Virus record (IMG/VR): IMGVR_UViG_3300027804_002812
Coordinates: 224,001-288,000 of that record
DNA from: a virus
Lineage: Duplodnaviria; Caudoviricetes
DNA length: 64,000 bases
Reading direction: 5' to 3' (one strand)
Position numbers and translations under genes: made by a program. Below the pieces are notes generated by a model. It was not told where the DNA came from, did no database searches, and worked only from the letters and a program-made list of their open reading frames with translations. This document shows, one piece after another, positions 3,385-22,341 of this stretch (its first letter is position 1; every line of letters begins with the position of its first letter).

Positions 3385-3403
3385 CCCACCGAAAAAAGGT
3401 GGG
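3385..3403. terminator. Bidirectional intrinsic terminator
   Basis: CCCACC-N7-GGTGGG between convergent genes, A-run on left. Confidence 0.75.
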
Positions 3404-3408
3404 AGGAT

Positions 3409-4641
3409 TTATTTATACAAGATAAAATCATTTTTCCGATCTTTCAAATCAACAACTTGAAATTCGGTTGGAGTTATAGGATAAACAAGATAATCGACCG
3501 CTTCCTTATTTTTCTTTGATTCAAATCTTTTAGCATCTGATTCAGATGATTTGACTTGAATTGTTATAGCATCCTTACCTCTTCCCATAATCAAGTCAAC
3601 GGAAAAAATCATATCAATAAAATTGCCATTTCCTCCACGATATAAGAGTTTATATCCCTTATTCTCGAATGCCTTGGAAACGTCAGTTTCCATTTGGTCT
3701 CCATATTTGGAAAATTTTGTTGAATATTTGGTGAAGTTCATTAAGTCTGTTTTACTTTCCAAATATTTTTCGAACAACTGTTCCTTGAAATCTCCTTTAT
3801 ATTTTAGAAGAACTTTTTTCATGGTTTCCGTATCAGTTGTATTAGATATTGTATCATATATTTGGGTAGAGGCTTTACTTCCAAGATTTTTGGCTTTTTC
3901 CAAATAAGTGGATAAAAGATCTGCTAAATCAGAATAGTTAGTGTTCAATTTGTTAACATAATGCCATTTTCCATTTGGGTCCAAATTACCTTCATCGTCA
4001 ACATATACCAATTTTCTATCGTATATGTATTTAACAAAATATTTATATCTCCATTGAGTTACTTTTCCATATGAAACCAATATATTCGCACCTTTAATAT
4101 TATCCTCAATATCTTTTTGTTGAATGTTAAATGTTATTCCCGACAAAATATCACCTATCACTTTTTTAAGATTTAATCCCTTTTCATCTTCAAGCCAAGA
4201 TCCGAGAGAATTTAATTTGTTATATACACTTCCACCCAACACGTTTGGGATACTCTTGTTAATTTTTTCTTCTTCTTGTCGGGAAAGAATTTTATCAACC
4301 GCCTCTCTATTCTTGTTTTGGTATCCAATGCAACCAAATGGAATTTGCAACCCACCAAATTTTGTGATTACCATACGTTTACAAGCATATGAGCTCATAT
4401 CCAACTCAAGAGCATCATCACCAATTTTAATCTCCAAATATCCCTTATTACCATACAACTGAGATAAATCATTGGCAGTTAATTTACCTTCACCTCCATC
4501 AATAACAACAGGATTGTTCACATAATAAAAATTACCCTTTGAGCCCAACGAACTACCTTTGATGACAGCAATATTTACACCCGTCTGGATGACCTCAACC
4601 AAATGATTTAACTGTTCCTCCGTAACAATGAAATTTCTCAT
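3409..4641 (-). CDS. Leader-tagged protein with C-terminal PD-(D/E)XK nuclease-like domain
   Basis: MRNFIVTEEQL leader; C-terminal E...F...GY...D...VDL...IQVK pattern. Confidence 0.6.
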   Translation of the reverse strand: MRNFIVTEEQLNHLVEVIQTGVNIAVIKGSSLGSKGNFYYVNNPVVIDGGEGKLTANDLSQLYGNKGYLEIKIGDDALELDMSSYACKRMVITKFGGLQIPFGCIGYQNKNREAVDKILSRQEEEKINKSIPNVLGGSVYNKLNSLGSWLEDEKGLNLKKVIGDILSGITFNIQQKDIEDNIKGANILVSYGKVTQWRYKYFVKYIYDRKLVYVDDEGNLDPNGKWHYVNKLNTNYSDLADLLSTYLEKAKNLGSKASTQIYDTISNTTDTETMKKVLLKYKGDFKEQLFEKYLESKTDLMNFTKYSTKFSKYGDQMETDVSKAFENKGYKLLYRGGNGNFIDMIFSVDLIMGRGKDAITIQVKSSESDAKRFESKKNKEAVDYLVYPITPTEFQVVDLKDRKNDFILYK

Positions 4642-4654
4642 ATATCAATAAATA

Positions 4655-4674
4655 CCCCACCTATTAATATGGGG
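4655..4674 (-). terminator. CCCCACC-family terminator
   Basis: CCCCA-N10-TGGGG downstream of 4683..5273. Confidence 0.6.
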
Positions 4675-4682
4675 TTGGATAA

Positions 4683-5273
4683 TTAAAATCTTAAAATTCT
4701 TTCTTTGTTTTGAATATCTACGATGTGTAAATATATATCGTCAAGGTCTTCGCCTGATTCAATTTTGTCAATAACATCTTCCTTTTTATAAAGAGTGTTT
4801 CTAACAATATAGTCAATCATCTCTTCATCTGTGATTCCTTTAGGTTTTTCAGGTTCAGGAGTACACTCGTATTCTCTATCCGATGTGCCAATGTCTTCAA
4901 TAGATAACCCCGACTCTCCAACAATTTGTTCGAACTTAGGAACCATCGTCTCATCATACCATTCAAGAATCACATGCAAAACATATGACTTTCTTATGCT
5001 CAATAATTCTGAAAGAGTATCAACAAGACCTTTGGATACCATCAAATATCCTTGGTCAAATCTACCATCCTCAAAATAATAAATTGCGGTAATTGTTTCT
5101 TTTCCATCAAAACACCAATCCTCACGAAGATTTCCGTAATTACGTGCCTTCGGAATGACCTTACGTTTACCATTACCAATATATTGATTCATATATTTGA
5201 CAATAAAATTACTAATGGACTGACTACTCTTGTTAAGTCTTCTATATTGTTCTTCTGTTAGTATATATTTCAT
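4683..5273 (-). CDS. Leader-tagged hypothetical protein
   Basis: MKYILTEEQY leader; 196-aa ORF. Confidence 0.8.
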   Translation of the reverse strand: MKYILTEEQYRRLNKSSQSISNFIVKYMNQYIGNGKRKVIPKARNYGNLREDWCFDGKETITAIYYFEDGRFDQGYLMVSKGLVDTLSELLSIRKSYVLHVILEWYDETMVPKFEQIVGESGLSIEDIGTSDREYECTPEPEKPKGITDEEMIDYIVRNTLYKKEDVIDKIESGEDLDDIYLHIVDIQNKERILRF

Positions 5274-5274
5274 A

Positions 5275-5610
5275 TTAACTTTTTTTTATTTTGAACTCAG
5301 CCCAAGTGCTATAAGGAACAACTTGAGTACGTTCAACTCTCAGATTATATTTGCTTTCGAAATACTTTCCAAAAAAGTGACGAGCAGTACCTACGTCTAC
5401 CGAAAACATAGACATAACGTCCTTAATTAAATCCGTTAAAATGTATAAATCGTCAGTGAAGTTATGCCCTATTATCCCGTGTTCTTCACCAGGAAACGCA
5501 AAGACAGTATCAAGATACCTACCTCTCTTTTTCTTAATCCCCTTCAATCTACTATCCAAGTATTTGAATACAATACTCTCTAATCTACTTTCCGTGATGA
5601 TGTATTTCAT
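5275..5610 (-). CDS. Leader-tagged paralog family A protein
   Basis: MKYIITESRLE start at 5610; shares FKYLDSKL..G..SD.VF..PG...MFS....GKY.ESRYNL with neighbours. Confidence 0.85.
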   Translation of the reverse strand: MKYIITESRLESIVFKYLDSRLKGIKKKRGRYLDTVFAFPGEEHGIIGHNFTDDLYILTDLIKDVMSMFSVDVGTARHFFGKYFESKYNLRVERTQVVPYSTWAEFKIKKS

Positions 5611-5611
5611 A

Positions 5612-5992
5612 TTATTCTTTATCAAGTATTAAGTAAGTTCTGTCAAATCTATCATTATCAACCACACTACCAAACATACTTTTAATCCTCGGAGCATAAT
5701 CCACTTTCATGTTGTATCTACTTTCAAGATATTTCCCAATTACCTCAAGAACATCACCCTCTTTCATAGAAAACATAGTTTGTATTTCCTCAAAGAATGG
5801 AAAATAAATGTGTAAATAATTATCCCCTTTTTTATGATACTTATTCACCGCAAATAACCCAACATCTTTACCAGGAACGGAAAAAACAAAATCCGAAAAT
5901 TTCCCTTTCTTTATAACGGTTCCTTCCAGCTTACTATCCAAAAATTTGAATAAAACTTTTTCTAATTTACTTTCCGTAATGATGTATTTCAT
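5612..5992 (-). CDS. Leader-tagged paralog family A protein
   Basis: MKYIITESKLE; alignable by eye to flanking paralogs. Confidence 0.85.
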   Translation of the reverse strand: MKYIITESKLEKVLFKFLDSKLEGTVIKKGKFSDFVFSVPGKDVGLFAVNKYHKKGDNYLHIYFPFFEEIQTMFSMKEGDVLEVIGKYLESRYNMKVDYAPRIKSMFGSVVDNDRFDRTYLILDKE

Positions 5993-6010
5993 ATCTTATA
6001 AATATCCCAA

Positions 6011-6169
6011 TCATTTATTACATTCACCCTTCTTTCCGCATACCTCACAGACATTCCCCTGTGAAGCACAAGTTCCCTTAAACTCACCTCCCTTAAGAAA
6101 TATCAATCTTACGGACATCAATATAAAAAATAAAGAAATAAATCCAATGGTTATTAGTAGTGTTATCAT
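6011..6169 (-). CDS. Small membrane protein with four-Cys tail (NqrM-like / Bacteroidota small membrane protein)
   Basis: Hand-translated 52 aa: MITLLITIGFISLFFILMSVRLIFLKGGEFKGTCASQGNVCEVCGKKGECNK; ATGA overlap with 6166..6528. Confidence 0.65.
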   Translation of the reverse strand: MITLLITIGFISLFFILMSVRLIFLKGGEFKGTCASQGNVCEVCGKKGECNK

Positions 6170-6528
6170 ATCCCATCTACTTTCAATGCTGAAAACTCAA
6201 AACCACAATTCCAAGTTGCAGAAGTGATATTCAAATTATATCTATTTTCAATATACCTTGCAATTGTTTTCAAAGATTCTTCCGATTGTAGAGAGAACAT
6301 GTTTTCCACCTCACGACCCAATAATAGAAAAACATATAATTTTCCTCCTTTATCAGTTTTTTCCCATCCCAATATTCCAAGTTCTTTATCTCCGTTAGGT
6401 GCCATTTTAGGAGAGATAAAAACAACATCCGAAAATTTTCCCTTCACAAGTTCGACACCTTCCAATTTACTATCCAAGAATTTGAATATGATATTTTCTA
6501 ACCGACTTTCCGTGATGATGTATTTCAT
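6166..6528 (-). CDS. Leader-tagged paralog family A protein
   Basis: MKYIITESRLEN; paralog of 5275/5612/6530. Confidence 0.85.
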   Translation of the reverse strand: MKYIITESRLENIIFKFLDSKLEGVELVKGKFSDVVFISPKMAPNGDKELGILGWEKTDKGGKLYVFLLLGREVENMFSLQSEESLKTIARYIENRYNLNITSATWNCGFEFSALKVDGI

Positions 6529-6529
6529 A

Positions 6530-6865
6530 TTAATAACTATCTACTTTTAACGGTTTCAAATTGAAAATACGCAAGTACTTGTTGGCATCCACCTTCAAAT
6601 TGTATCTACTTTCAACATACCTTCCGATAACATCAAGAACATCAGATTCATCCATTGAAAACACATTTTTAACTTCATCAACAATTTCGTAATAAGAGAA
6701 TAATTGATTAGATTTTTTCCATCCCATCAATCCAAATTCTTCACCAGGAAACACAAAGACAATATCAGAATAATCTCCTTTCTTGAGTTCAATACCCTCC
6801 AACTTCTCATTCAAAAATTTGAATATTAAGTTTTCCAATCTGCTTTCCGTGATGATGTATCTCAT
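6530..6865 (-). CDS. Leader-tagged paralog family A protein
   Basis: Start revised to MRYIITESRLEN at 6865. Confidence 0.85.
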   Translation of the reverse strand: MRYIITESRLENLIFKFLNEKLEGIELKKGDYSDIVFVFPGEEFGLMGWKKSNQLFSYYEIVDEVKNVFSMDESDVLDVIGRYVESRYNLKVDANKYLRIFNLKPLKVDSY

Positions 6866-6887
6866 AACTTCTTCTTTGAATAGGGGG

Positions 6888-7205
6888 TTAATAATATATT
6901 GAGTAATAAACCGCCTTAATGGGATTATCAGGATATTTTTTTTCAAACCATCTTTGAATTAAATCTTCAGTCTCAGAAAAATTCCTGTTGAACAATCCAC
7001 TAATTGTTAAGAACAAATGCTGACTAACTCCCAAGTGTTGGTCAAGAAACTGAAATATCATATTTTCATTTTTATCAACAAGGTCGAAGTCCTCCTCCGT
7101 CCCAATTGTATGACTTGAATCTCTTTCGATAAGTTCCCCCACCACTAAAGTAATATACTTATCAACCAATTTTACAAGTCTATCTTCTGAAATAATATAA
7201 TCCAT
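6888..7205 (-). CDS. Leader-tagged divergent family A protein
   Basis: MDYIISEDRL leader; LGVSQ.LF..IS.LF...F.E...LI..WFE pattern. Confidence 0.75.
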   Translation of the reverse strand: MDYIISEDRLVKLVDKYITLVVGELIERDSSHTIGTEEDFDLVDKNENMIFQFLDQHLGVSQHLFLTISGLFNRNFSETEDLIQRWFEKKYPDNPIKAVYYSIYY

Positions 7206-7231
7206 AATTTATAAATACCAATAAAATAAAA

Positions 7232-7255
7232 AACCCCACCTATAAAGATGGGGTT
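7232..7255 (-). terminator. CCCCACC-family terminator
   Basis: AACCCCA...TGGGGTT with A-run (U-tract on minus strand). Confidence 0.75.
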
Positions 7256-7279
7256 ATACTATAGATTGTGTTTTCGAAA

Positions 7280-7909
7280 TTACTTACCAGTTCTTGAAGT
7301 ATATCCTGTTGACGGTCTTTCCCCTTTTGCTGTCCGTATTAAAGCCTCTCGTTCTAGTTCCTCTTTTTCACCCGGTTTCAACGGTGGATAGGGTGTATCG
7401 TCTGAGGGTTGGAAGTTCGTTACCAAATTTCTAATAGGTCTCATAATTCTAGCCCATTCAGATTCATTAGAAATATCAGAACTCAAATCCGTGTATAAAT
7501 CAACATTGTAACTACTTTTATAAGCCTTTACCAATGCACAAAATTCACTAAATGATTTCAAATTTTCAAATGCTTTATAGATTAATTCTTCATTCGTTCC
7601 AACCCCTTGTACCGCATCTCTTATCATATCAGCAAACTGATTCACACGACCCCTATCTCTGTAAGAAGAATTTTCTTTGTTACATATATCACAAAACTCC
7701 TTAACTTTTTTGTCTGAATCTCCAAATCCAGTTAGGACTTGATTCAGCATACCCATCAAGTCTTGTTCATTAACCAAAGGTTTCACATCCCCAAGTTTCG
7801 AATTTAACAATTTAGAGAAACTCTCAGTCATAACCTTCATCCCTCCTGTATGTTGTTCACGGATGGAGTTCTTCTCCTGTTCCGATAAATCGTTTAATAT
7901 ATGTTTCAT
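7280..7909 (-). CDS. Leader-tagged protein with single annexin-like repeat
   Basis: DAVQGVGTNEELIYKAF...KAYKSSYNVDLYTDLSSDIS matches the annexin GxGT-DE...Y...L..DL..(E/D) repeat. Confidence 0.7.
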   Translation of the reverse strand: MKHILNDLSEQEKNSIREQHTGGMKVMTESFSKLLNSKLGDVKPLVNEQDLMGMLNQVLTGFGDSDKKVKEFCDICNKENSSYRDRGRVNQFADMIRDAVQGVGTNEELIYKAFENLKSFSEFCALVKAYKSSYNVDLYTDLSSDISNESEWARIMRPIRNLVTNFQPSDDTPYPPLKPGEKEELEREALIRTAKGERPSTGYTSRTGK

Positions 7910-7943
7910 AATTTTTAATTTATTATAAATATCTCAAACATTC

Positions 7944-7999
7944 AAAAAAAAGGGGTTGGGGATTTCCACGACCGAAGGGAGAAAGCGGATCCGAATACA
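7944..7999. repeat. Intergenic element copy 1 (A-run, GGGGTTGGGGATT, CGACCGAAGGGAG, AAAGCGG)
   Basis: Direct repeat of copies at 12421, 12907, 13614, 14478, 14895. Confidence 0.9.
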
Positions 8000-8007
8000 A
8001 ATAAAAA

Positions 8008-8030
8008 ACCCCACCTTTATGGGGTGGGGT
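8008..8030 (-). terminator. CCCCACC-family terminator
   Basis: ACCCCACC-TTTATGG-GGTGGGGT. Confidence 0.8.
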
Positions 8031-8049
8031 AAATAACAGATTGAATTTT

Positions 8050-8676
8050 TTATGCTAAGTTAGATTGTTGTGGTTTGCCGGTACTAGCATATGTTCCTTT
8101 TGGAACTGATGATCCACCAGAACCTACAGTACAAAAATCTTTTTTCAACTTATCAGTAAAATATTTTGAATATAGAGCAATCCCCTGAGGACCCGTAAAA
8201 AGTTTGGTGTCAAATGGGATTAATTGGTCGGGTTTATCACATGAGTAGCTCAAAAAATAAACATGGTCACTATTACCAACTCGGTAGTCTGTTCCATCAC
8301 TTAGTTTAACCTCTTCGTATTTATATGCAATAACTATTTTTCCAAGTTTATCTTTAGAGTCACCTAACCCACTATACATATAATCAATTCTAATTTGTCT
8401 TTTGAACTTTCTATTTTCACGATCAGTGTAAAGATTTACCGTATTTCCCTTGAAGGATTCAAATTTTTCTTCACTAAACGCATTGACTTTGTCTTGAGGA
8501 GTATCACCAGAGATTTCAGGTATCGCTTTGGACATCGGAGGGTTAATTTTGGTTTTTGTTCCAGGGTTTTCACCAGTTTGAGTCACCGTTGTTTGAACTT
8601 GCTCACTCATAAGTCGTTTCTCTAATCTCTGATTGACTTCTTGAATGTGTCTGATTTTACTATAACTTCTATTCAT
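8050..8676 (-). CDS. Leader-tagged hypothetical protein
   Basis: Start revised to MNRSYSKIRHIQEVNQRLEKRL, shared with 10591..11283. Confidence 0.8.
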   Translation of the reverse strand: MNRSYSKIRHIQEVNQRLEKRLMSEQVQTTVTQTGENPGTKTKINPPMSKAIPEISGDTPQDKVNAFSEEKFESFKGNTVNLYTDRENRKFKRQIRIDYMYSGLGDSKDKLGKIVIAYKYEEVKLSDGTDYRVGNSDHVYFLSYSCDKPDQLIPFDTKLFTGPQGIALYSKYFTDKLKKDFCTVGSGGSSVPKGTYASTGKPQQSNLA

Positions 8677-8716
8677 AATATTGTATTTCCAATAAATATC
8701 ATTAAACACAAAAAAA

Positions 8717-8737
8717 CCCCACCTTTATGGGGTGGGG
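8717..8737 (-). terminator. CCCCACC-family terminator
   Basis: CCCCACC-TTTATGG-GGTGGGG, same as the 8008 copy. Confidence 0.8.
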
Positions 8738-8763
8738 AGATATTAACTTCAATACTTAATATA

Positions 8764-9168
8764 TTATTGAGGTTGTTGAGGTGCTTGTGCTCTTGCAATT
8801 GCTTGTGCCAAAGCATCAAGTGGTGCCAATACATTGGAAATTGCCGGTAAATATGGTTTGAACGATTCCGTATTTTGATATTGAGAAACAGCTTTTTTAA
8901 TAGTATCAGGAAGATTACCAAGTTGTCTTCTGATTTTCAAAATGTCATAAATTGCATTTATTTCATTTTGTTGTGCCTGACTTGTTGCTCGGTTTGTTTG
9001 TCTCAAATCTTGTCTTGCATCTCTTCTTGCGTCCCTTGCATCTCGAACACCTGCTCTAGCGGCATCAAGTCCTTGTTGTGCGGCTATTTGTTGACTAGTT
9101 TGTTCTTGTAATGTTTTTTTAACCAATCTTGCCAAATCAGCTTCGGTCATTCTTATAATTTTTCCCAT
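8764..9168 (-). CDS. Leader-tagged helical Q/A/R-rich protein
   Basis: MGKIIRMTEADLARLVKK..LQEQ leader; DARRDARQ low-complexity helix. Confidence 0.8.
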   Translation of the reverse strand: MGKIIRMTEADLARLVKKTLQEQTSQQIAAQQGLDAARAGVRDARDARRDARQDLRQTNRATSQAQQNEINAIYDILKIRRQLGNLPDTIKKAVSQYQNTESFKPYLPAISNVLAPLDALAQAIARAQAPQQPQ

Positions 9169-9210
9169 AATAGTTTCAGTTTACAATAAATATCACAATA
9201 CTGAAAAAAA

Positions 9211-9234
9211 ACCCCCACCTATTAAGATGGGGTT
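9211..9234 (-). terminator. CCCCACC-family terminator
   Basis: ACCCC(C)A...TGGGGTT with A-run. Confidence 0.7.
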
Positions 9235-9239
9235 ATCAA

Positions 9240-9827
9240 TTAAATTATTTCCCAATCGATTTCACCGTATTGGTCGTATTCATCATTCTCATCGTGAGTG
9301 GAACCGTCAATATCTTCATGAAGTTTTCTATAAGCCTCACAAGAACTTCTTGCCATCACAGTATGAGTCCAAGTCTGAACGCAACTCCTTGATGCTTGAA
9401 TTGTATATTCTGTTTCCTCATTCTCTTCCCATCCTTCTTCATCCTCACAATCATCATCAACAACATTCTTAACATCCTCAGGAACTCTACCAAACTTATC
9501 GATTGATTCCATCAGACTATTGCGAAACGCAATCAAATCTTTCAAAGAATAAATCTTAAAGGAATAACTTGATGCGGGAGAACCATTAACCCCAATCTCA
9601 ACATATTCCTTTGTCCCATCAGATCCGTCCCAATGATAAATGGAAAGACCCGATGCATTATCGAATTCCAAAGTTGAATCATTAACATACAAATAATTCA
9701 AGTTCCAATTATCAGGATTGGAATCCTTCATTTCCTGATACTCTTTTTCCAAGTCTCTAATCTGAGACAATGCTTTGGAATACTTCTTCTCAAAAGACTT
9801 CTTCCATTTATCTGTAAATTCTGCCAT
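9240..9827 (-). CDS. Hypothetical acidic protein (no leader)
   Basis: Start likely MAEFTD at 9827; C-terminal domain resembles 22691..22939. Confidence 0.75.
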   Translation of the reverse strand: MAEFTDKWKKSFEKKYSKALSQIRDLEKEYQEMKDSNPDNWNLNYLYVNDSTLEFDNASGLSIYHWDGSDGTKEYVEIGVNGSPASSYSFKIYSLKDLIAFRNSLMESIDKFGRVPEDVKNVVDDDCEDEEGWEENEETEYTIQASRSCVQTWTHTVMARSSCEAYRKLHEDIDGSTHDENDEYDQYGEIDWEII

Positions 9828-9870
9828 AACAAATTTTTTTATAATGATAAACAAAATTTTTTAATAAAAA

Positions 9871-9895
9871 AACCCCTCCTTTATGGGGAGGGGTT
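9871..9895 (-). terminator. CCCCTCC variant of shared terminator
   Basis: AACCCCTCC-TTTATGG-GGAGGGGTT: compensatory A-T/T-A swap versus other copies. Confidence 0.8.
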
Positions 9896-9903
9896 ATATT
9901 ACA

Positions 9904-10581
9904 CTAATTTTTATCACTTAAGGCAACCCTGAGTTTATTTACATCTTCGTCCTCTTTTTTGGCATCGAAATAGTTTTTTGTAATATCATATCCAACACTA
10001 TATCCTACACCCACTCCCAAGTATTTTAATCCTGTTTTACCCAAATTTGCTAATGATGTTTTTATAGATGAAGATAATGGTTTTGATGCAGCTTGTTGAG
10101 CCAAAGTTTTGACGTGAGTGTCCAAAGAACTCTTAACAAAATCGGTTCCTTTTTTTATACCCTCAATGACGGCCAACTCTACTGAATCAGTAATTTTATC
10201 ACCTTTAGCTATTTTTTCAGCTAAGGCAGACATTCCTTTAACTCCTAGTTGTTTGATTGCAGGAATTCTATTTATAATAGCTAAAGCACCAGGCATCAAA
10301 GAAAATATTGCCACCAAACCTGCGGTTTTCGTGTCACCTTCTTTGTAATATAATGAGGCGTCCCCCAATCCGATTCCTGCTGATAAGAATGGACCAACGA
10401 AAGGTACAAAAGAACTTGCAAAGGCCAAAAGAGGTAAAAAGAAATGAGCATCTTTCACCATTAGTTCGCCCATCTTCATAATTGCCTCTGGTTTTTGGTA
10501 GTCATAACCACCTACAGGCCCTAAACCTATTGGTTGCTCAATGAGTAAATTATATTGACGTTCGGAAATAATATATTTCAT
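9904..10581 (-). CDS. Leader-tagged protein with hydrophobic Gly/Ala-rich helices (pre-toxin-TG-like)
   Basis: MKYIISERQY..LLIEQ leader; SFVPFVGPFLSAGIGLGDASLYYKEGD..AGL..IFSLMPG. Confidence 0.65.
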   Translation of the reverse strand: MKYIISERQYNLLIEQPIGLGPVGGYDYQKPEAIMKMGELMVKDAHFFLPLLAFASSFVPFVGPFLSAGIGLGDASLYYKEGDTKTAGLVAIFSLMPGALAIINRIPAIKQLGVKGMSALAEKIAKGDKITDSVELAVIEGIKKGTDFVKSSLDTHVKTLAQQAASKPLSSSIKTSLANLGKTGLKYLGVGVGYSVGYDITKNYFDAKKEDEDVNKLRVALSDKN

Positions 10582-10590
10582 GAAAAAAAA

Positions 10591-11283
10591 TTATTTAGTA
10601 ATAATATCCGCAATCGCGTCATCAAATTTTACAATAGCATCATCAAGATTCTGTTTGAAAATTTGAAATACCCTTTTGTTTCCCGGATCTAATTGTAAAG
10701 TTAAATCAAGATCACCTAATGATTTTCTAGCCCTCTTCAAAGCCAAATAGATATCGGCTAAATCTACAGCCTGTCCCTTCGGTGTTTGGAGTTTGTCAAG
10801 ATTTCTTGCCAAGTCATCTCCAACGTATTTGAGTCTAAGGAAAGCATTAGTTGCCACATCATTACCATAGGGTAATTTTGGTTGAGGTAAGGTAGACATA
10901 ATATTTTTGAAGTCTCTTAAGGCTACAACTACTTCATCTCTTACAGGAGACAAAAATCGAGTCAAAACATCTGACATTTTAAGCGTACCAAGTTTCGACA
11001 ATAATCTTGCGGTACTACCCGATGCCCCTGCCTTCACCAAACGAGAAATCATTTCGTCCGCAGTTTCTGGTTTTGGAGGAGCAATCCATGGCTTTGACGT
11101 AGTACCCATGGCTTTTTTAACAAGGTTTTTACCTCCTTGAACTAAACCTTTAGCCAATCCTGTAATTGCGGGAACAATTTGTTCGTTAACGTCTCCTTCG
11201 GTGATTACATTCTCAACCAATCTTTTTTCTAATCTTTGGTTGGCTTCTTGAATATGTCTGATTTTACTATAACTTCTATTCAT
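10591..11283 (-). CDS. Leader-tagged hypothetical protein
   Basis: Start revised to MNRSYSKIRHIQEANQRLEKRL at 11283. Confidence 0.8.
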   Translation of the reverse strand: MNRSYSKIRHIQEANQRLEKRLVENVITEGDVNEQIVPAITGLAKGLVQGGKNLVKKAMGTTSKPWIAPPKPETADEMISRLVKAGASGSTARLLSKLGTLKMSDVLTRFLSPVRDEVVVALRDFKNIMSTLPQPKLPYGNDVATNAFLRLKYVGDDLARNLDKLQTPKGQAVDLADIYLALKRARKSLGDLDLTLQLDPGNKRVFQIFKQNLDDAIVKFDDAIADIITK

Positions 11284-11322
11284 AACTTTGTATTTCCAAT
11301 AAATATCATACGGCACAAAAAA

Positions 11323-11344: not shown

Positions 11345-11351
11345 AGGATAA

Positions 11352-11834: not shown

Positions 11835-11852
11835 AATGTATTTTCAGTTCAT

Positions 11853-14441: not shown

Positions 14442-14477
14442 TGTATTATATTTTTACAACAATAAATATCTATCATC

Positions 14478-14542
14478 AAAAAAAGGGGTTGGGGATTAGA
14501 ACGACCGAAGGGAGAACGGGGCGGTATTCGAATATCCCCACC
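14478..14542. repeat. Intergenic element copy 5 with half terminator
   Basis: GGGGTTGGGGATT-AGAA-CGACCGAAGGGAG...ATCCCCACC. Confidence 0.85.
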
Positions 14543-14544
14543 TA

Positions 14545-14829
14545 TTAATTAACAAACATTTTCCCCAACTCTTCACCAAGTCCCTCCACCACAATGGGTT
14601 CACCGAACTTAACCTCATGGGAGATGTACTCATAGAGAGAATGCTCATTGCTCTGAGCCTCCACCATCTTGATAAGAGCATTTTTCAAATCCTCCTTATA
14701 AGCATACATCACCAAATCGGAATCAACAGGAAATGAAAAATCCACCCCACCCTTCGGCTTCCAATAAGGAATATTGGAACCAGAATAATTCTCGTAGTAT
14801 TGAGCGGAAACTAAAATAGAAATCATCAT
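14545..14829 (-). CDS. Hypothetical protein (host-RNAP promoter class)
   Basis: 94-aa ORF preceded by a TTTG-N19-TATCTTTG promoter. Confidence 0.7.
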   Translation of the reverse strand: MMISILVSAQYYENYSGSNIPYWKPKGGVDFSFPVDSDLVMYAYKEDLKNALIKMVEAQSNEHSLYEYISHEVKFGEPIVVEGLGEELGKMFVN

Positions 14830-14855
14830 ATCGTATAGAGGTTATCGTTGAAGTA

Positions 14856-14887
14856 CAAAGATACAATAATTTTCATACCACACAAAA
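14856..14887 (-). promoter_or_regulatory. Bacteroidota sigma70-type promoter (-33 TTTG / -7 TATCTTTG)
   Basis: Minus-strand TTTG then 19 nt then TATCTTTG, upstream of 14829. Confidence 0.7.
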
Positions 14888-14894
14888 TATTTTC

Positions 14895-14945
14895 AAAAAA
14901 AAGGGCTGGGGATTTCCACGAACGAAGTGAGAACGGACGGGGCGG
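14895..14945. repeat. Intergenic element copy 6 (covarying variant)
   Basis: GGGCTGGGGATT-TCCA-CGAACGAAGTGAG; stem CC/GG changed to AC/GT. Confidence 0.85.
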
Positions 14946-14957
14946 TATACAAATAAC

Positions 14958-15530
14958 TCACTTTACCAAATGAGGATATTTCTCCATCATTTTATTCACC
15001 TTTGTAATTGTATTAATACAAACCCCCAACTCTTCAGATATCCTATTATGCCTCCATCCCAACTTTTTTAATTCAACAATTTTCTTAATCTTTACTTTTT
15101 CAAAAAATAATTCAGGACTTTCACTTGTACCAACTTTTCTACCTGTATAAATTCCAAGTTCCTTTGCCCTTTTTATTCCCTTCATTCTCATCTCCTTAGA
15201 GTCTCTATTTATCACCAATTCCACAATCCCCAATAGATACTGCTGAATATAAAACGGTATAAACTTACACCTATATCCCTTCGAAATATTTTCCTTTAAT
15301 GGAAGAAATTGAATATTTCTCAAATCTGCAATATACTCAGGGGGTACGTTCAATCTATATCCAAATGAAACAGGAAACTTGTGGTCTATCGTCATTCCCT
15401 CAGGAACAATAATTCCTTTATAATTCAAATTTTGATTAGTATACCAATCAACCTTTCTTCTATAACTATTCATTGAAATTTCCATAACTAAAAAATAAAC
15501 AATACCACAAATTTTGTAAAATTTTTCCAA
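14958..15530 (-). CDS. HNH-like endonuclease fused to serine-resolvase-type arm and HTH
   Basis: TIDHKFPVS...NIQFLPLKENISKG (HNH); RMKGIKRAKELGIYTGRK...ISEELGVCINTITKV (resolvase arm + HTH). Start may be 15473. Confidence 0.6.
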   Translation of the reverse strand: MEKFYKICGIVYFLVMEISMNSYRRKVDWYTNQNLNYKGIIVPEGMTIDHKFPVSFGYRLNVPPEYIADLRNIQFLPLKENISKGYRCKFIPFYIQQYLLGIVELVINRDSKEMRMKGIKRAKELGIYTGRKVGTSESPELFFEKVKIKKIVELKKLGWRHNRISEELGVCINTITKVNKMMEKYPHLVK

Positions 15531-15591
15531 AAATTTTTTTTAACGTTGAAGGAGTATTTCCAAATAGGGGGTCAATGTTTAGAAAATAAAA

Positions 15592-15613
15592 AACCCCTCT
15601 GTTGGGAGGGGTT
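15592..15613 (-). terminator. CCCCTC variant terminator
   Basis: AACCCCTC...GAGGGGTT with A-run. Confidence 0.75.
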
Positions 15614-15617
15614 AATA

Positions 15618-15905
15618 TTAGTTCAACTTCTTTATGTATTGACCAACACCTGTACTCATGAATCCATTTTTCCTCAACTTACTTTTAATCCTAAGACCTG
15701 TATCCTTATCAAACCCATTCCATCCAAAATAACTTGGACTTTCCACATCCACCACAACATAACCCCCAATATATTTTACAGTCACACATTCAGAGTCCAT
15801 ATACTGTTTCAAATCATCAAGAATATCAATATCTCGGACTTCTTTAATCACCCCTCGTATAATCTTAATCAATTCAGATTCCGTAAGTCTTACAATTTTT
15901 TTCAT
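15618..15905 (-). CDS. Leader-tagged hypothetical protein
   Basis: Start revised to MKKIVRLTESEL at 15905, with TATTTAT just upstream. Confidence 0.8.
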   Translation of the reverse strand: MKKIVRLTESELIKIIRGVIKEVRDIDILDDLKQYMDSECVTVKYIGGYVVVDVESPSYFGWNGFDKDTGLRIKSKLRKNGFMSTGVGQYIKKLN

Positions 15906-15998
15906 ATTAATAAATACCCAAAAAAGGTCATTTTTTTCCCAAAAATTATTTTGCATAACATAGGGGATTATCCCCCCAAAACTGACATTCTGACAGGA

Positions 15999-19260: not shown

Positions 19261-19639
19261 TCCGAAAAGTATTACCTTTGGGACTATGAAGAATACCCTG
19301 AAACTTAAGAGATTAATGATGTCGTACTTAAACACCACGTACCCTGAGATTTACCTATTGAAGTTGGATTTCTTGGGGGATATCGTACAGACCTTTGATG
19401 AAAGTAAACAAAAGGGATGGTTCGACGAAAATGGAGTGAATAGTAGTCCTGATAGTTGGTGGGTCATGAGAAAGAAAATCATCTCGAGATTGGAGTTGAT
19501 GTTCTCTGTGGATTATGTCACCGCTGACAGCGTATTGAATGATTGGGTGAACTGTAGACCTAAATATGAGTATGTCAGAAACTCTATGAACGAGCAAGTC
19601 CTTGTCCGTGTGATGGAGGAATGTCATACGACATTATAA
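19250..19639 (+). CDS. Hypothetical protein (distant family A-like)
   Basis: 129-aa ORF; LELMFSVDY....VLNDW pattern. Confidence 0.65.
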   Translation: MKGNPKSITFGTMKNTLKLKRLMMSYLNTTYPEIYLLKLDFLGDIVQTFDESKQKGWFDENGVNSSPDSWWVMRKKIISRLELMFSVDYVTADSVLNDWVNCRPKYEYVRNSMNEQVLVRVMEECHTTL

Positions 19640-19702
19640 CTGTCATTTGCCGGGATTGATTATCCCCCAACCCCCTTTTTTATTTTAATGATATTTATTA
19701 CT

Positions 19703-20014
19703 ATGAAGTATATTATATCTGAGCACAGATTCGAAAGATTTATAATAAAGTACTTAAACACTTTGGACTTTATTGATGATAACCATAGTGAAGATGGCTT
19801 TGATGTGATGTATAACGGTAGTGAAGCGATGGCTTACCGAAGTCGTCATAAAAAATTATACATTAGCACTGACTTAATTAAAGATATGAAATCCCTTTTT
19901 AATTTGAGTCAAAAAGAAGTCATGGACTATATAAGAACGTGGTTTCGTAATGAATATGATGTGGAAGTAAATACCTTATGGTTTTTATTTCCTGATGAAC
20001 CATTTACCTATTAA
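19703..20014 (+). CDS. Leader-tagged family A-like protein
   Basis: MKYIISEHRFE at 19703, TATTTAT upstream. Confidence 0.8.
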   Translation: MKYIISEHRFERFIIKYLNTLDFIDDNHSEDGFDVMYNGSEAMAYRSRHKKLYISTDLIKDMKSLFNLSQKEVMDYIRTWFRNEYDVEVNTLWFLFPDEPFTY

Positions 20015-20350: not shown

Positions 20351-20635
20351 ATGAAATACATTATCTCCGAGAGTCGACTTGATAACATCATGAAAAAGTA
20401 TTTGGACTCTTTCTTATTGGGTAAGAATGTAGTCGATAATAAAAGGGTTATTGCAGTGTATAGTGATGAGGAGGATTATTTACAATATTTCCCGAGAAAA
20501 AAAGAACTATTTATATTGGATGAATTCTTGGATGAGTTCGAGGCTATGTTTGGTCTTACTCGAAAAGAATCAATTAGATTCATTATGGATTGGTTCGAAA
20601 ATGAATTTCATGTGAAAGTTCAGATGGCTGGATAA
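20351..20635 (+). CDS. Leader-tagged family A-like protein
   Basis: MKYIISESRLD leader; MFGL....S...I.DWFENEF. Confidence 0.8.
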   Translation: MKYIISESRLDNIMKKYLDSFLLGKNVVDNKRVIAVYSDEEDYLQYFPRKKELFILDEFLDEFEAMFGLTRKESIRFIMDWFENEFHVKVQMAG

Positions 20636-20642
20636 TTGGTTT

Positions 20643-20984
20643 CTACCCAACATATTTTTTGGCGCCACGTGTATATAAAGACACAAACTTCTCCAACAAT
20701 TCCTTATCACTATTGATTAAATTACGAAGTCCGTCTTCTAATTCTTCCATTTGTCGAACGTGGATATCAGCATAATCCGTAGGTATTACACTTATAATCC
20801 CCGAGTATATTGCTCTATCTAAGTATGTTTGAAAGTCAGGCATAAATGATGGCATGTACCAATCTGCCGCTAGAATAACTGCGTTGATAAGTTCGGGCAT
20901 TCTTCTCTTGAGATATGGATCTACGGAGCCTTCATTAATCCCCATCACTTCTTTAATTCTATCTATATCTTCTTGTAAGTTCAT
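20643..20984 (-). CDS. Leader-tagged paralog family B protein
   Basis: MNLQEDIDRIKEVMGINE; YLKRR...F..YLDRAI domain. Confidence 0.8.
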   Translation of the reverse strand: MNLQEDIDRIKEVMGINEGSVDPYLKRRMPELINAVILAADWYMPSFMPDFQTYLDRAIYSGIISVIPTDYADIHVRQMEELEDGLRNLINSDKELLEKFVSLYTRGAKKYVG

Positions 20985-21325
20985 ATTAAATCGAGTTTGC
21001 TTATGTAAATTTGTTGAAGTTTTTGGAATAGTTCTCTGTCTCTATTGATTATTCTCCATAAAATAATTTCGAGTTCCTTTAATTCATCGTGAGTCAAATC
21101 ATAAGTTGCTATTACGTCTCTAATTGAACCAAATATTGCCCTGTCTACAAAATTCAGAAAATCGTGATCAGAATATTCTCTGTCACTCCTAACATATATT
21201 GCGTCAGCAATATCAACAATTGCCTCCACAAACGCAGGAATTCTTCTTCTTAAATATGGATTAAGAAAACCTTCAGTGATCCCCATCACCTCTTTGATCC
21301 TATCTATATCTTCTAATAAATTCAT
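20981..21325 (-). CDS. Leader-tagged paralog family B protein
   Basis: Start revised to MNLLEDIDRIKEVM at 21325. Confidence 0.8.
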   Translation of the reverse strand: MNLLEDIDRIKEVMGITEGFLNPYLRRRIPAFVEAIVDIADAIYVRSDREYSDHDFLNFVDRAIFGSIRDVIATYDLTHDELKELEIILWRIINRDRELFQKLQQIYISKLDLI

Positions 21326-21329
21326 TTGG

Positions 21330-22292
21330 CTATATGTTGGAGATATAGTGATCGTAAATCTCATCGTATATTGAATGTTTCTTTATTAACTCCAATATCA
21401 TCGGCTCTAACTCCTCACGAATCTTTAACTGTTCCTCGTATTCCCCTCCTATTTCATCGTGAACAAAATCTCTTGTTGCTGAGAATACAACCCTCTTTAG
21501 AAAATCATTAAAGTTATCGTATGCTCTTGGCGATAACCAATCATATGAAGCCTCAACATAATCAATTAAAGCATCCATTCTTCTTTTGACACGATTAATT
21601 TCTTTGGATTCATTCAATCCGTTCACTTTTTCAAAGGAAGTTTCATTAGGGTCACCCCAACCACCTTCTGAGAAAAAGTAATTATGAATCTCGTCATACA
21701 TTTCTTTATTGGTATTTATGTAGTTCAACATTTTTGGTTCGAAGTCATCCATCATCTTTGACATATCATCAAAATCTTCGGAATCAAAAAAATCCATGGC
21801 AATATGCCTAGTTGTGTCATGTACAACTCTCCTTAAAAAATGGTCAAAGTTGTCGAATCTACTAGCAGCTAAATCACTATATTGAGAACGTATGTCATTA
21901 TTTAACCTACCTAATCTTCTTTTGATAGGAAGTGCGTAATCGGATTCATCGATTCTTGAAGTAACCCTATAATTTATGTAATTACGTTTGATTCTTTTGA
22001 ATAACCTCTCATCATTACGTAATATTCTAAGAGCAATTGGAAGTAACTCATCTATTTCTTCACTGGTCACAAGAATATCATTATGACCGAAGAAACTGTC
22101 TATTGCATGCATCAAAATCTCCTCGACATATTCTTCAAAACTATCACTATCAGTTTCCTCTACATCAATCCACTCGAAAGAATTAATAATATCATCTATA
22201 AATTCCTCCTGTCTTCGTATAAAAAAAGTGTTGCGGTTTTCGTTAATACCCATCACTTCTTTAATCCGATTTATGTCTTCCTGTAGATTCAT
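21330..22292 (-). CDS. Leader-tagged family B protein with three tandem domain copies
   Basis: MNLQEDINRIKEVM; three RR...F(D)(S/N)F..FL.RVV...(T)R repeats. Confidence 0.8.
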   Translation of the reverse strand: MNLQEDINRIKEVMGINENRNTFFIRRQEEFIDDIINSFEWIDVEETDSDSFEEYVEEILMHAIDSFFGHNDILVTSEEIDELLPIALRILRNDERLFKRIKRNYINYRVTSRIDESDYALPIKRRLGRLNNDIRSQYSDLAASRFDNFDHFLRRVVHDTTRHIAMDFFDSEDFDDMSKMMDDFEPKMLNYINTNKEMYDEIHNYFFSEGGWGDPNETSFEKVNGLNESKEINRVKRRMDALIDYVEASYDWLSPRAYDNFNDFLKRVVFSATRDFVHDEIGGEYEEQLKIREELEPMILELIKKHSIYDEIYDHYISNI

Positions 22293-22318
22293 GTTAATAA
22301 ATATCTGTGTAATGAAAA

Positions 22319-22341
22319 ACCCCCACCTTTTGGGTGAGGGT
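22319..22341 (-). terminator. CCCCACC-family terminator
   Basis: ACCC-CCACC...GGTG-A-GGGT. Confidence 0.6.

What the first reader, a model, noticed from the sequence alone, without database searches (positions are those of the whole stretch)
3385..22341. Single-gene cassette array: shared promoter motif + tagged ORF + shared terminator
Genes here behave as stand-alone units. TATTTAT sits 4-25 nt before the ATG, and a homologous terminator (CCCCACC..GGTGGGG) occurs at 3385, 4655, 7232, 8008, 8717, 9211, 9871, 11323, 12484, 15592 and 22319. The copies at 9871 and 15592 carry a compensatory CCCCTC/GAGGGG change. Conserved DNA brackets variable cargo, and the leader-coding DNA is identical even at synonymous sites (28 nt at 5587-5614 = 6505-6532). 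Inference: an integron-like but recombinase-free cassette array in which homologous flanks allow insertion, loss and swapping of cargo genes.
Basis: partly seen in the sequence, partly recalled or inferred. Interest (0 to 1): 0.75.

Follow-up and report, generated by a model that had tools for sequence, protein, structure and literature searches.

The report
Shuffling cassette array of tagged phage genes
This is a highly reshuffled block of small late genes in an uncultured 326-kb T4-like freshwater phage: most of the genes carry short N-terminal tags that look like capsid-loading signals, and shared promoter, terminator and tag sequences mark the points where relatives have swapped genes, a larger-scale version of a mechanism already described for T4-type phages.

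Summary
All 11 hairpins, the TATTTAT motif, the compensatory stem change and the 28-nt identity are present at the stated coordinates.

The window lies in a 326-kb IMG/VR phage record that encodes a T4-type major capsid protein (Gp23) and prohead protease (Peptidase_S77). The region is a hyperplastic accessory block with about 22 small ORFs. They carry four N-terminal leader classes: A (MKYIITE), B (MKKxxRLTESDLxRxVKRVIxE), C (MNLQEDIxRIKE) and D (MNRSYSKIRHIQE). Each contains the [L/I]-x-E cleavage motif of the T4 protease.

TATTTAT is not specific to the cassettes. It is the phage's genome-wide late-type promoter motif and also precedes the portal, sheath, scaffold and protease genes. Only 6 of about 10 units hold a single gene.

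One cassette gene (w9240) at 75% or more identity has 13-14 different upstream and 12 different downstream neighbour families in 27 related contigs. Homology blocks end at hairpins and T-runs, at promoters, at a six-copy element and at tag ends (29 of 44 end clusters; 18% expected).

No integrase or resolvase is encoded.

The closest known systems are the PeSL promoter-terminator cassettes and the T-even internal-protein loci. I class this as a new variant of a known kind. The scan has already noted similar capsid-targeting-like leader arrays on other DNA.

The parts
3385..3403 (-). terminator-like hairpin with T-run, bidirectional, after ORF 3409-4641
4654..4675 (-). type I hairpin; its 3' end overlaps promoter motif 4648-4654
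7232..7255 (-). type I terminator hairpin with T-run
8008..8030 (-). type II terminator hairpin with T-run
8717..8737 (-). type II terminator hairpin with T-run
9213..9232 (-). type I terminator hairpin; its T-run (9204-9211) is a recurrent block end in relatives
9871..9895 (-). type II hairpin with compensatory T-A pair; position 9872 is the commonest block end (11 loci)
11323..11344 (-). type I terminator hairpin with T-run
12484..12503 (-). type I terminator hairpin with T-run
15592..15613 (-). terminator hairpin, CCCCTC/GAGGGG variant
22319..22342 (-). terminator hairpin (9 bp including a T.G pair) upstream of promoter 22297-22303
4648..15916 (-). late-type promoter motifs TATTTAT on the minus strand at 4648, 5998, 7211, 7925, 8692, 9186, 11299, 12403, 12897, 13597, 14462 and 15910 (each 7 nt), 4-20 nt before an ATG. 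Further copies at 22297 (-) and 19692 (+).
   Evidence: the same motif precedes portal, sheath, fibre, scaffold and protease genes
7946..8003 (-). six-copy C-rich element (..CTCCCTTCGGTCGTnnnAATCCCCAACCCC then T-run), copy 1
12421..12478 (-). six-copy element, copy 2 (94% identical to copy 1, placed before an unrelated gene)
12907..12964 (-). six-copy element, copy 3
13615..13672 (-). six-copy element, copy 4; stays with the upstream gene 13671-14441 in relative L099
14479..14536 (-). six-copy element, copy 5; stays with the upstream gene 14545-14829 in relative L091
14896..14953 (-). six-copy element, copy 6 (diverged)
19633..19679 (+). same C-rich element in + orientation before + strand gene 19703-20014; a second, weaker copy at 20010-20056
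3409..4641 (-). 410-aa ORF with leader-like MRNFIVTEE; weak PD-(D/E)xK nuclease leads at the C-terminus
   Evidence: orthologues at 77-80% in other contexts
4683..7205 (-). run of six A-leader ORFs (4683-5273, 5275-5610, 5612-5992, 6166-6528, 6530-6865, 6888-7205), with one internal promoter at 5998
7280..7909 (-). 209-aa ORF, MKHILNDLSE.., with an annexin repeat (Pfam 26.1 bits, cut-off 25)
8050..8676 (-). D-leader ORF (MNRSYSKIRHIQE)
8764..9168 (-). B-leader ORF (MGKIIRMTEADL..); lies on the other side of the lysozyme gene in relative L006
9240..9827 (-). untagged acidic 195-aa ORF (MAEF..), the marker cassette used for the comparison
9904..10581 (-). A-leader ORF with hydrophobic segments
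10591..11283 (-). D-leader ORF; shares only the leader and upstream DNA with 8050-8676
   Evidence: (family D9)
11352..11834 (-). B-leader ORF
11853..12398 (-). B-leader ORF with DUF6576
12513..12878 (-). C-leader ORF
12951..13592 (-). C-leader ORF
13671..14441 (-). untagged 256-aa ORF inside the array
14545..14829 (-). untagged 94-aa ORF inside the array
14958..15530 (-). ORF with phrog_5104 N-terminal part and invertase-type HTH; possibly homing-endonuclease-like
15618..15905 (-). B-leader ORF; relative L006 shares the upstream DNA and the first 36 nt of the ORF, then has different cargo
19703..20014 (+). A-leader ORF on the + strand
20351..20635 (+). A-leader ORF on the + strand
20643..22292 (-). 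three C-leader ORFs (20643-20984, 20981-21325, 21330-22292)

Best explanation
The region is a hyperplastic accessory block of a T4-superfamily jumbo phage.

It holds short late transcription units. Each unit starts at the phage's late-type promoter motif (TATTTAT, 4-20 nt before the ATG). Each unit ends either at one of a family of related intrinsic terminators (CCCC..GGGG stem plus T-run) or at a C-rich six-copy element that is also followed by a T-run.

Most of the ORFs begin with one of four short leaders. Each leader ends in, or contains, [L/I]-x-E, the cleavage motif of the T4-type prohead protease that this phage encodes. The leaders most likely act like the T4 capsid targeting sequence. 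On that reading they dock unrelated cargo proteins into the prohead core, the protease trims them, and the proteins are delivered with the DNA.

Because every unit carries the same few regulatory and leader sequences, the phage's general recombination machinery can delete, insert, reorder and re-head genes at these points without disturbing neighbouring genes. This is the proposal made for PeSL cassettes.

Shown here: the anatomy, the genome-wide late motif, the presence of the protease, massive reshuffling among relatives, and block ends lying on the shared elements.

Inferred: transcription start and stop, capsid targeting and cleavage, and that the shared elements cause the exchanges rather than merely tolerate them.
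For: Phage type. Peptidase_S77 scores 78 bits and Gp23 scores 209 bits in the same record. A Rad50/SbcC-like gene and a weak RecA-like gene are present.

Late motif. TATTTAT precedes the scaffold, prohead protease, portal, tail sheath and tail fibre genes. It is strand-specific, 80 sense against 19 antisense.

Leaders.
- 25 strict matches genome-wide, 22 of them at genome 229-249 kb.
- Distant members differ at synonymous sites, so selection acts on the peptide.
- A B-leader logo from 116 non-identical proteins of other viral contigs shows 22 conserved residues. I20 is 84% and E22 is 97% conserved, and conservation collapses at residue 23.
- At least 752 B-leader proteins of 99-751 aa exist in the large protein database.
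- 13 of 16 B-leader-bearing viral records carry Peptidase_S77, including 6 of 6 that are at least 90% complete.
- 118 of 157 tagged ORFs in 80 other loci have TATTTAT within 40 nt upstream.
- The M23-peptidase/lysozyme next to the array also starts with a leader-like MKKTLTEE.

Shuffling.
- In relative L006 the array is reordered and interleaved with novel genes, while the flank stays syntenic.
- In 27 loci where the w9240 orthologue is at least 75% identical, it has 13 upstream neighbour families (14 with this genome) and 12 downstream families.
- 29 of 44 unique block-end clusters fall on elements that cover 18% of the region (binomial 5e-12).
- Resolved junctions lie in the T-run (L091, L099), at the promoter edge (L098) and inside the B leader (L093, L098).
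- The same arrangements recur in contigs from different assemblies.
- In lake metagenomes the exact strain's contigs break at these elements, and 8-11 contigs per run diverge 34 nt into the B-leader ORF.

Literature. gp21 cuts after L/I-X-E, and 10-19-residue propeptides target the internal proteins to the core (PMC9026906). PeSL cassettes are described in PMC2839356 and PMC4122927.
Against: - No experiment or proteome shows packaging or cleavage.
- [L/I]-x-E is short. 18% of this phage's ORFs have it within the first 13 residues.
- No cultured phage in GenBank carries the B leader, so nothing can be transferred from a studied relative.
- Block ends at gene borders are expected under any gene-turnover process, because selection keeps genes whole.
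- BLAST blocks extend into conserved tags and terminators simply because these are conserved.
- At two resolved junctions the parents share only a 7-nt T-run. That looks more like microhomology than homologous recombination.
- Several array genes lack a leader (9240, 13671, 14545), and several tagged genes lack their own promoter or terminator.
- Metagenome contigs can be chimeric at repeats.
Confidence: 0.62

Rival explanations
1. This is ordinary gene turnover with no role for the repeats. The promoters and terminators resemble each other only because they serve the same polymerase. Genes are gained and lost by illegitimate or microhomology-mediated recombination (moron-like accretion), and selection keeps only the junctions that fall between genes.
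For: The L091 and L099 junctions share only a 7-nt T-run. In L098 one junction lies directly between a stop codon and the next ATG. TATTTAT is genome-wide. Synonymous-site identity in the tags is barely raised.
Against: The type I and type II hairpins share loop sequence and a conserved G.U pair, not only GC content. Intergenic blocks of 71-111 nt at 89-94% identity precede unrelated genes (families D2 and D9). Several block ends lie inside ORFs, exactly at the end of the leader. The turnover is confined to this block, while the flanks keep their order.
Confidence: 0.2
2. The apparent shuffling is an assembly artefact. Metagenome assemblers joined different co-occurring strains at the short shared repeats.
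For: All relatives are metagenome contigs. The repeats are exactly where k-mer contigs break. Identity to this genome differs between neighbouring cassettes on one contig, for example 97-99% next to 67-73% in L091.
Against: The shared elements are 20-70 nt, shorter than typical reads. Identical arrangements recur in contigs from different samples: L006 with L007; L092 with L093; L095, L096, L098, L106 and L112; L103 with L104; L107, L108 and L113. Many interleaved genes have no counterpart in this genome.
Confidence: 0.07
3. Cassette mobility is driven by a nuclease. The hairpins or the six-copy element would be recognition or cleavage sites for a homing-type endonuclease, for example the HNH-like plus HTH ORF at 14958-15530, and repair of the break copies neighbouring cassettes.
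For: ORF 14958-15530 sits inside the array and has an invertase-type HTH. It is present next to different genes in L114. The six-copy element shows no RNA structure, so it may be a DNA or protein-binding site. The PeSL authors also speculated that a GGGG..CCCC-binding protein exists (PMC2839356).
Against: Pfam finds no nuclease domain. Most shuffled loci do not contain this ORF. Nothing links it to the elements.
Confidence: 0.08
4. The leaders are not capsid-targeting signals. They would instead be a shared docking helix for another partner, such as a modifying enzyme, a chaperone or another virion site, or an mRNA-level initiation element.
For: There is no direct evidence for packaging. An earlier scan note (e1-127136) describes a shared phage N-terminal tag better explained as a radical-SAM recognition site. 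The AlphaFold model of the leader is low-confidence.
Against: Radical-SAM genes in this genome lie more than 85 kb from the array. Synonymous variation with a conserved peptide argues against an RNA element. Conservation ends exactly at I-x-E. The genes are driven by the same motif as the head and tail genes. The T4-type protease co-occurs with the leader.
Confidence: 0.25

Closest known systems
PeSL (promoter-early stem-loop) regulatory cassettes of T4-type phages (Arbiol et al. 2010, PMC2839356; Comeau et al. 2014, PMC4122927)
   Same: Composite promoter plus GC-stem hairpin/terminator motifs, with stems often GGGG..CCCC. They are concentrated in hyperplastic regions next to ORFans. Insertions, deletions and replacements between relatives map to them. 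No dedicated recombinase is known. The authors themselves compared them with integrons.
   Different: Here the promoter is the late-type TATTTAT motif shared with the structural genes, not a sigma70-like early promoter. A second 3' element (the six-copy C-rich element) alternates with the hairpins. The leader-coding DNA is a third kind of junction, lying inside ORFs. Mini-circles were not tested. There is no sequence homology to the RB49/phi1 PeSLs.
T-even internal protein (IP) loci and the capsid targeting sequence (CTS) (Repoila et al. 1994, as cited in PMC2839356 and PMC12373910; review PMC9026906)
   Same: Unrelated small proteins share a short N-terminal leader ending in the gp21 motif L/I-x-E. 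The loci are hypervariable between relatives and are flanked by PeSL-like elements. The proteins are non-essential, and in T4 they are injected defence inhibitors (Ip1-3 block GmrSD, PMC12373910).
   Different: There are four or more leader classes, 7 to 22 residues long, instead of one 10-residue CTS (MKTYQEFIAE, quoted in PMC8442874). About 22 tagged genes sit in one block, against 3 in T4. The promoter motif is late-type. Packaging and cleavage are untested here.
Integron gene-cassette arrays
   Same: A tandem array of short, mostly single-ORF units of variable content, each with a hairpin-forming sequence at its 3' end.
   Different: There is no IntI tyrosine recombinase and no serine recombinase. 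The hairpins are terminator-like with T-runs, not attC sites. The cassettes carry their own promoters instead of relying on a common Pc.
Morons of lambdoid phages (Hendrix et al. 2000, as discussed in PMC2839356)
   Same: Single genes that bring their own promoter and terminator and are inserted between other genes.
   Different: The moron concept does not include conserved flanking sequences or a shared protein leader. Here the flanks form repeated families.

Membership tests
PeSL-type regulatory cassettes | Composite intergenic motif made of a promoter plus a stable GC-stem stem-loop | tested here: met
   The hairpin, its T-run and TATTTAT lie within about 40 nt of each other at 4654, 7232, 8717, 9213, 11323 and 22319.
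PeSL-type regulatory cassettes | The promoter is a sigma70-like early promoter | tested here: not met
   Sigma70-like sites are not enriched: 78 found against 86.5 expected. The conserved motif is TATTTAT, which is shared with the structural genes.
PeSL-type regulatory cassettes | Enriched in hyperplastic regions next to ORFans | tested here: met
   11 of 43 hairpins lie in 16 kb. The cargo has almost no Pfam or PHROG matches.
PeSL-type regulatory cassettes | Insertion, deletion and replacement breakpoints between relatives coincide with the motif | tested here: met
   29 of 44 block-end clusters lie on the shared elements. Junctions are shown at base level.
PeSL-type regulatory cassettes | Excised mini-circles carrying one hybrid motif | not testable with these tools
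   Only assembled contigs were available. The 'goes back' joints are also compatible with a different gene order in relatives.
T4 CTS / internal proteins | A short N-terminal leader shared by otherwise unrelated proteins | tested here: met
T4 CTS / internal proteins | The leader ends at a gp21 cleavage motif L/I-x-E | tested here: met
   B leader: I20-x-E22, with E at 97% and loss of conservation after it. A leader: I-T-E7. C leader: L-Q-E5 and I-K-E12. D leader: I-Q-E13. This is sequence evidence only.
T4 CTS / internal proteins | A gp21-type prohead protease (Peptidase_S77) in the same phage | tested here: met
   and 13 of 16 other leader-bearing records.
T4 CTS / internal proteins | The protein is packaged in the head, trimmed and ejected | not testable with these tools
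   This needs virion proteomics. The complex prediction of scaffold with leader gave no verdict.
T4 CTS / internal proteins | Sequence homology to the T4 CTS MKTYQEFIAE | tested here: inconclusive
   There is only a general resemblance (MK-aromatic/aliphatic..I-x-E). The peptide is too short for statistics.
Integron | IntI tyrosine recombinase next to the array | tested here: not met
   PF00589 is absent from the 326-kb record, while the control genomes are all positive. PF00239 is also absent.
Integron | Promoterless cassettes expressed from one common promoter | tested here: not met
   12 promoter motifs lie within the 13-kb minus-strand array.
Integron | attC recombination sites at cassette ends | not tested
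   The 3' hairpins are 7-10 bp GC stems with short loops and T-runs. I saw no attC-like core sites, but I ran no attC model.

The most novel reading that the evidence does not exclude
A large clade of uncultured T4-like jumbo phages may use a standard, exchangeable gene format: late promoter, cleavable leader of 7-22 residues, cargo, and a CCCC/GGGG terminator. This format would build and constantly re-deal an arsenal of capsid-delivered proteins. The leader-coding DNA itself would serve as an in-frame recombination linker, so that cargo can be swapped behind a fixed address tag. If true, the injected proteome of hundreds of uncultured phages could be read from sequence alone, and the unit of exchange would be defined at base resolution.
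Probability: 0.35. Interest if true: 0.7.

Novelty: new variant of a known kind. Interest (0 to 1): 0.55.

Why it matters
If the leaders are capsid-targeting signals, this phage lineage packs some twenty or more different accessory proteins, against three in T4, and exchanges them gene by gene between co-occurring strains. That would make the block a natural catalogue of candidate injected anti-defence or takeover proteins. It would also give an unusually clear natural example of modular shuffling: the same gene is found in at least 13 contexts, with junctions resolved to a T-run, a promoter edge or the end of a leader. The finding also extends the PeSL idea from early-gene regions of coliphages to late-expressed, virion-directed genes of freshwater jumbo phages.

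Tried and rejected
- Complex prediction of the gp22-like scaffold (523 aa) with the B-leader alignment gave no verdict (score 0.00). It counts neither for nor against binding.
- The AlphaFold2 model of ORF 11352-11834 has mean pLDDT 64. The leader is modelled as a helix (residues 9-22) at pLDDT about 50, followed by a disordered linker and a beta-rich domain. Confidence was too low to use, and I ran no fold search.
- Megablast of the array against GenBank phages found nothing. tblastn with B-leader proteins found no cultured phage.
- Full-text search for the leader strings found no paper.
- Repoila 1994 (PMC395341) is not held in the library. It is cited only through later papers.
- RNA-library contigs (run X16) cover several cassettes, for example 8771-9171, and none of the pieces listed crosses a hairpin. 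Contigs cannot show transcript ends, DNA may contaminate the library, and stretches without cover prove nothing.
- The 'goes back' and 'skips' joints in DNA contigs have short sides (19-51 nt) and come from more abundant relatives. I did not read them as circles.
- RNA folding of the six-copy element showed no structure beyond shuffled controls (z from -1.2 to +1.1), so it is not an intrinsic terminator.
- Test for DNA-level homogenisation of the leaders: only a slight excess of identical codons, so general gene conversion of the tags is not supported.
- Integron membership is rejected.
- The radical-SAM tag reading gains no support: the three rSAM genes lie at 16, 19 and 310 kb, far from the array.
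- Pfam, PHROGs and ESM Atlas give almost no function for the cargo.

Full report
1. Context

The window is bases 224001-288000 of a 326,291-bp IMG/VR virus record with about 33% GC. The record encodes a T4-type prohead protease (Peptidase_S77, 78 bits, genome 140.5 kb) and a Gp23-type major capsid protein (209 bits, 136.7-138.3 kb). Between them lies an acidic gp22-like scaffold gene, and a portal gene sits nearby. The window also encodes an SbcC/Rad50-like protein, and an M23-peptidase/lysozyme lies at its left end. The phage is therefore a distant T4-superfamily jumbo phage. Its best matches among GenBank phages are only 22-24% identical. Shine-Dalgarno-like sequences precede only 12 of 397 ORFs.

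2. The observation

Each lies a few to about 50 nt after a stop codon and is followed by a T-run.

The hairpins fall into two subfamilies that share loop sequence as well as stem sequence:
- Type I, CCCCATCTT(A/T)(A/T)TAGGTGGGG: five copies in the window plus one at window -677.
- Type II, CCCCACCCCATAAAGGTGGGG: two identical copies, plus the CCCCTCC/GGAGGGG variant at 9871.

Twelve copies align at 70% mean column identity. The consensus stem has 7 bp, and two of its pairs show compensatory changes.

An unbiased scan finds 43 terminator-like hairpins in the whole genome. Eleven of them lie in the 16 kb at genome 223.3-239.6 kb.

TATTTAT lies in sense orientation within 35 nt of the ATG of 80 of 397 ORFs. 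The reverse complement does so for 19, and same-composition permutations have a median of 14. The gap to the ATG is bimodal, 4-6 nt or 12-20 nt.

The 28-nt identity 5587-5614 = 6505-6532 is exact. It always lies 9-20 nt upstream of a TATTTAT motif.

3. Corrections to the picture

TATTTAT is not a cassette feature. It precedes the scaffold, prohead protease, portal, tail sheath and tail fibre genes and many others. It is therefore best read as this phage's late-type promoter motif, the counterpart of the T4 late promoter TATAAATA (the T4 motif is from my own knowledge).

The units are not all single genes:
- Six units hold one gene: 15618, 9240, 8764, 8050, 7280 and 3409.
- Two units hold two genes: 11853 with 11352, and 10591 with 9904.
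- One unit holds 6-7 A-family genes (7205 down to 4683).
- The stretch from 15530 down to 12513 has five genes separated by the six-copy element rather than by hairpins.

Window 16.3-19.6 kb holds other things, namely a DnaA-box cluster, a glycosyltransferase and a metallophosphoesterase.

4. The tags

Strict patterns find 25 tagged ORFs in the genome, and 22 of them lie at genome 229-249 kb. The classes are:
- A: MKYIITES..
- B: MKK(I/V)(I/V)RLTESDLxR(L/I)VKRVIxE
- C: MNLQEDIxRIKEVMGI
- D: MNRSYSKIRHIQE

Looser relatives of these leaders occur on the 410-aa ORF 3409-4641, on ORF 7280-7909, on the M23-peptidase/lysozyme, and on a few genes elsewhere, including one inside the structural module.

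Distant members of each class use different synonymous codons. Across each family, codon identity at identical residues is only slightly higher in the tag than in the rest of the protein. The peptide is therefore what is conserved.

The B leader is widespread. A back-translated pattern hit more than 586 stretches in IMG/VR, of which 394 were confirmed. A profile search found at least 752 proteins of 99-751 aa. A logo from 116 non-identical proteins shows strong conservation through residue 22 (I20 84%, E22 97%), and no position beyond it exceeds 31%. Phage T4's prohead protease cuts after L/I-X-E, and T4 internal proteins carry 10-19-residue propeptides that target them to the prohead core and are then removed (PMC9026906). 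All four leader classes contain such a motif at or near the end of the conserved stretch.

Three further checks agree with this reading:
- 13 of 16 other leader-bearing viral records carry Peptidase_S77, including 6 of 6 that are at least 90% complete. The three without it are fragments.
- 118 of 157 tagged ORFs in 80 other loci have TATTTAT within 40 nt upstream.
- Radical-SAM genes, a rival partner suggested by an earlier scan note, lie far from the array.

I therefore read the leaders as capsid-targeting and protease-processing signals, with about 55-60% confidence. This rests on sequence logic only.

A relative with a 70%-identical lysozyme (L006, and the identical L007 from a second metagenome) keeps gene order in the flank. 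In the array, however, it has a different order, novel genes of 227, 230, 393 and 414 aa, and the 8764 and 8050-like cassettes on the other side of the lysozyme gene.

I then used ORF 9240 as a marker, and 33 metagenome loci were retrieved. In the 27 loci where the marker is at least 75% identical, its upstream neighbour belongs to 13 different families (14 counting this genome). Its downstream neighbour belongs to 12 different families.

BLASTN blocks between these loci and the window end at 44 distinct positions. Of these, 29 lie on hairpins and T-runs, the six-copy element, promoter-to-ATG segments or the first 75 nt of tagged ORFs. Together these elements cover 18% of the region (binomial 5e-12). 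The commonest ends are:
- 9871-9875 (11 loci) and 9894-9905 (8 loci), which are the two edges of hairpin 9871-9895;
- 9204-9211 (9 loci), the T-run after hairpin 9213-9232;
- 9099-9119 (9 loci), the end of the B leader of the next gene.

At base level:
- In L091 and L099 the upstream parent (a gene plus a six-copy element) and the downstream parent (the 9240 unit) meet inside the 7-nt T-run.
- In L098 one junction lies at the 5' edge of the TATTTAT promoter of the 3409 unit.
- Another L098 junction lies between the stop codon of 3409 and the ATG of a B-leader gene. The tag DNA of that gene is more diverged from this genome than its cargo is.
- In L093 homology runs through terminator, promoter and B leader and stops at the end of the leader.

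The six-copy element stays with the upstream gene in L091 and L099. It therefore behaves as a 3'-end module, equivalent in position to a hairpin, although it has no RNA structure.

Lake metagenomes that hold the exact strain also hold many relatives. The exact strain's contigs break at the D leader, at six-copy elements and at hairpins. In each run, 8-11 contigs share the first 34 nt of the B-leader ORF and then diverge.

6. What this does and does not show

It shows that gene content and order in this block turn over far faster than sequence diverges, and that the exchange units are delimited by the shared elements.

It does not prove that the shared elements cause the exchanges:
- Selection for intact genes would also place junctions between genes.
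- BLAST blocks extend into conserved motifs simply because these are conserved.
- Two resolved junctions share only a T-run.

Chimeric assembly at repeats is a formal rival. It is weakened because the elements are short and because identical arrangements recur in independent assemblies.

No tyrosine or serine recombinase is encoded. A Rad50-like gene and a weak RecA-like gene are present, in line with T4-type general recombination, which needs only short patches of homology (as discussed in PMC2839356).

7. Comparison with known systems

Arbiol et al. 2010 (PMC2839356) described PeSLs as conserved promoter-plus-stem-loop cassettes, often with GGGG..CCCC stems, clustered in hyperplastic regions of T4-type phages. 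They showed that insertions, deletions and replacements between RB49 and phi1 map to these cassettes, demonstrated mini-circles, compared the cassettes with integrons, and noted that no dedicated recombinase is known. They also point out that Repoila et al. 1994 saw PeSL-like elements around the hypervariable internal-protein loci of the T-even phages. Comeau et al. 2014 (PMC4122927) extended PeSLs to other T4-like branches.

The present array works like both systems at once. It differs in four ways:
- It uses the late-type promoter motif.
- It has a second 3' element.
- It has four or more leader classes, and leader-internal junctions.
- Its scale is larger.

It fails the defining features of integrons. 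I therefore class it as a new variant of a known kind. Earlier notes of this scan describe similar capsid-targeting-like leader arrays in other uncultured T4-like jumbo phages (e1-5340821, e1-5321603, e1-5348662). These are leads, not independent evidence.

8. Verdict

The best explanation, at about 0.62 overall, is a PeSL-like, late-expressed cassette array of leader-tagged and probably capsid-targeted accessory proteins.

Noticed in passing
window 7946-8003, 12421-12478, 12907-12964, 13615-13672, 14479-14536, 14896-14953 (-); 19633-19679, 20010-20056 (+): A C-rich element (..CTCCCTTCGGTCGTnnnAATCCCCAACCCC followed by a T-run) always lies 9-20 nt upstream of a TATTTAT motif and is strand-specific. 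It is found only in this phage and its close relatives. It shows no RNA structure and stays with the upstream gene in relatives. Its function is unexplained.
   Followed up: partly
window 16101-17162: Six perfect DnaA boxes (TTATCCACA) lie in about 1.1 kb at the strand switch next to the array. Seven occur in the window, against 1.26 expected.
   Followed up: partly
window 14958-15530 (-): An ORF inside the array has an N-terminal match to phrog_5104 and a C-terminal invertase-type HTH but no resolvase catalytic domain. It may be a homing-endonuclease-like gene. It is present next to different genes in relative L114.
   Followed up: partly
whole genome (G000): Only 12 of 397 ORFs have a Shine-Dalgarno-like sequence. 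For 28 genes TATTTAT ends just 4-6 nt before the ATG, which suggests leaderless or near-leaderless late mRNAs.
   Followed up: partly
window 7280-7909 (-): This cassette protein contains one annexin repeat just above the Pfam cut-off (26.1 against 25 bits, residues 91-150).
   Followed up: partly
window 2-1417 (-), continuing to window -4: An M23 peptidase, peptidoglycan-binding domain and phage lysozyme fusion starts with a leader-like MKKTLTEE and has a TATTTAT promoter. It may be a virion-delivered cell-wall hydrolase. Relative L095 has a partly homologous 491-aa protein with a different (A-like) leader.
   Followed up: partly
genome 135472-136650 (-) and L006:11031-12338: A fifth possible leader (MIKQTWxISxEERxRILSLHES) is shared at 88% over 33 residues by two otherwise unrelated proteins. 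One lies directly downstream of the major capsid gene here, and the other lies next to the lysozyme gene in the relative.
   Followed up: no
protein P0066 (metagenome, 302 aa): This protein carries the B leader at its N-terminus and a second, internal copy (..KKVTESDLTRLVRRVIQE..) in the middle, as if two cassettes had fused in frame.
   Followed up: no
window 13671-14441 (-): This untagged array protein ends with ..EKLQEEIIRIKELLYL, which resembles the C leader (..IxRIKE(L/V)M..) but sits at the C-terminus.
   Followed up: no
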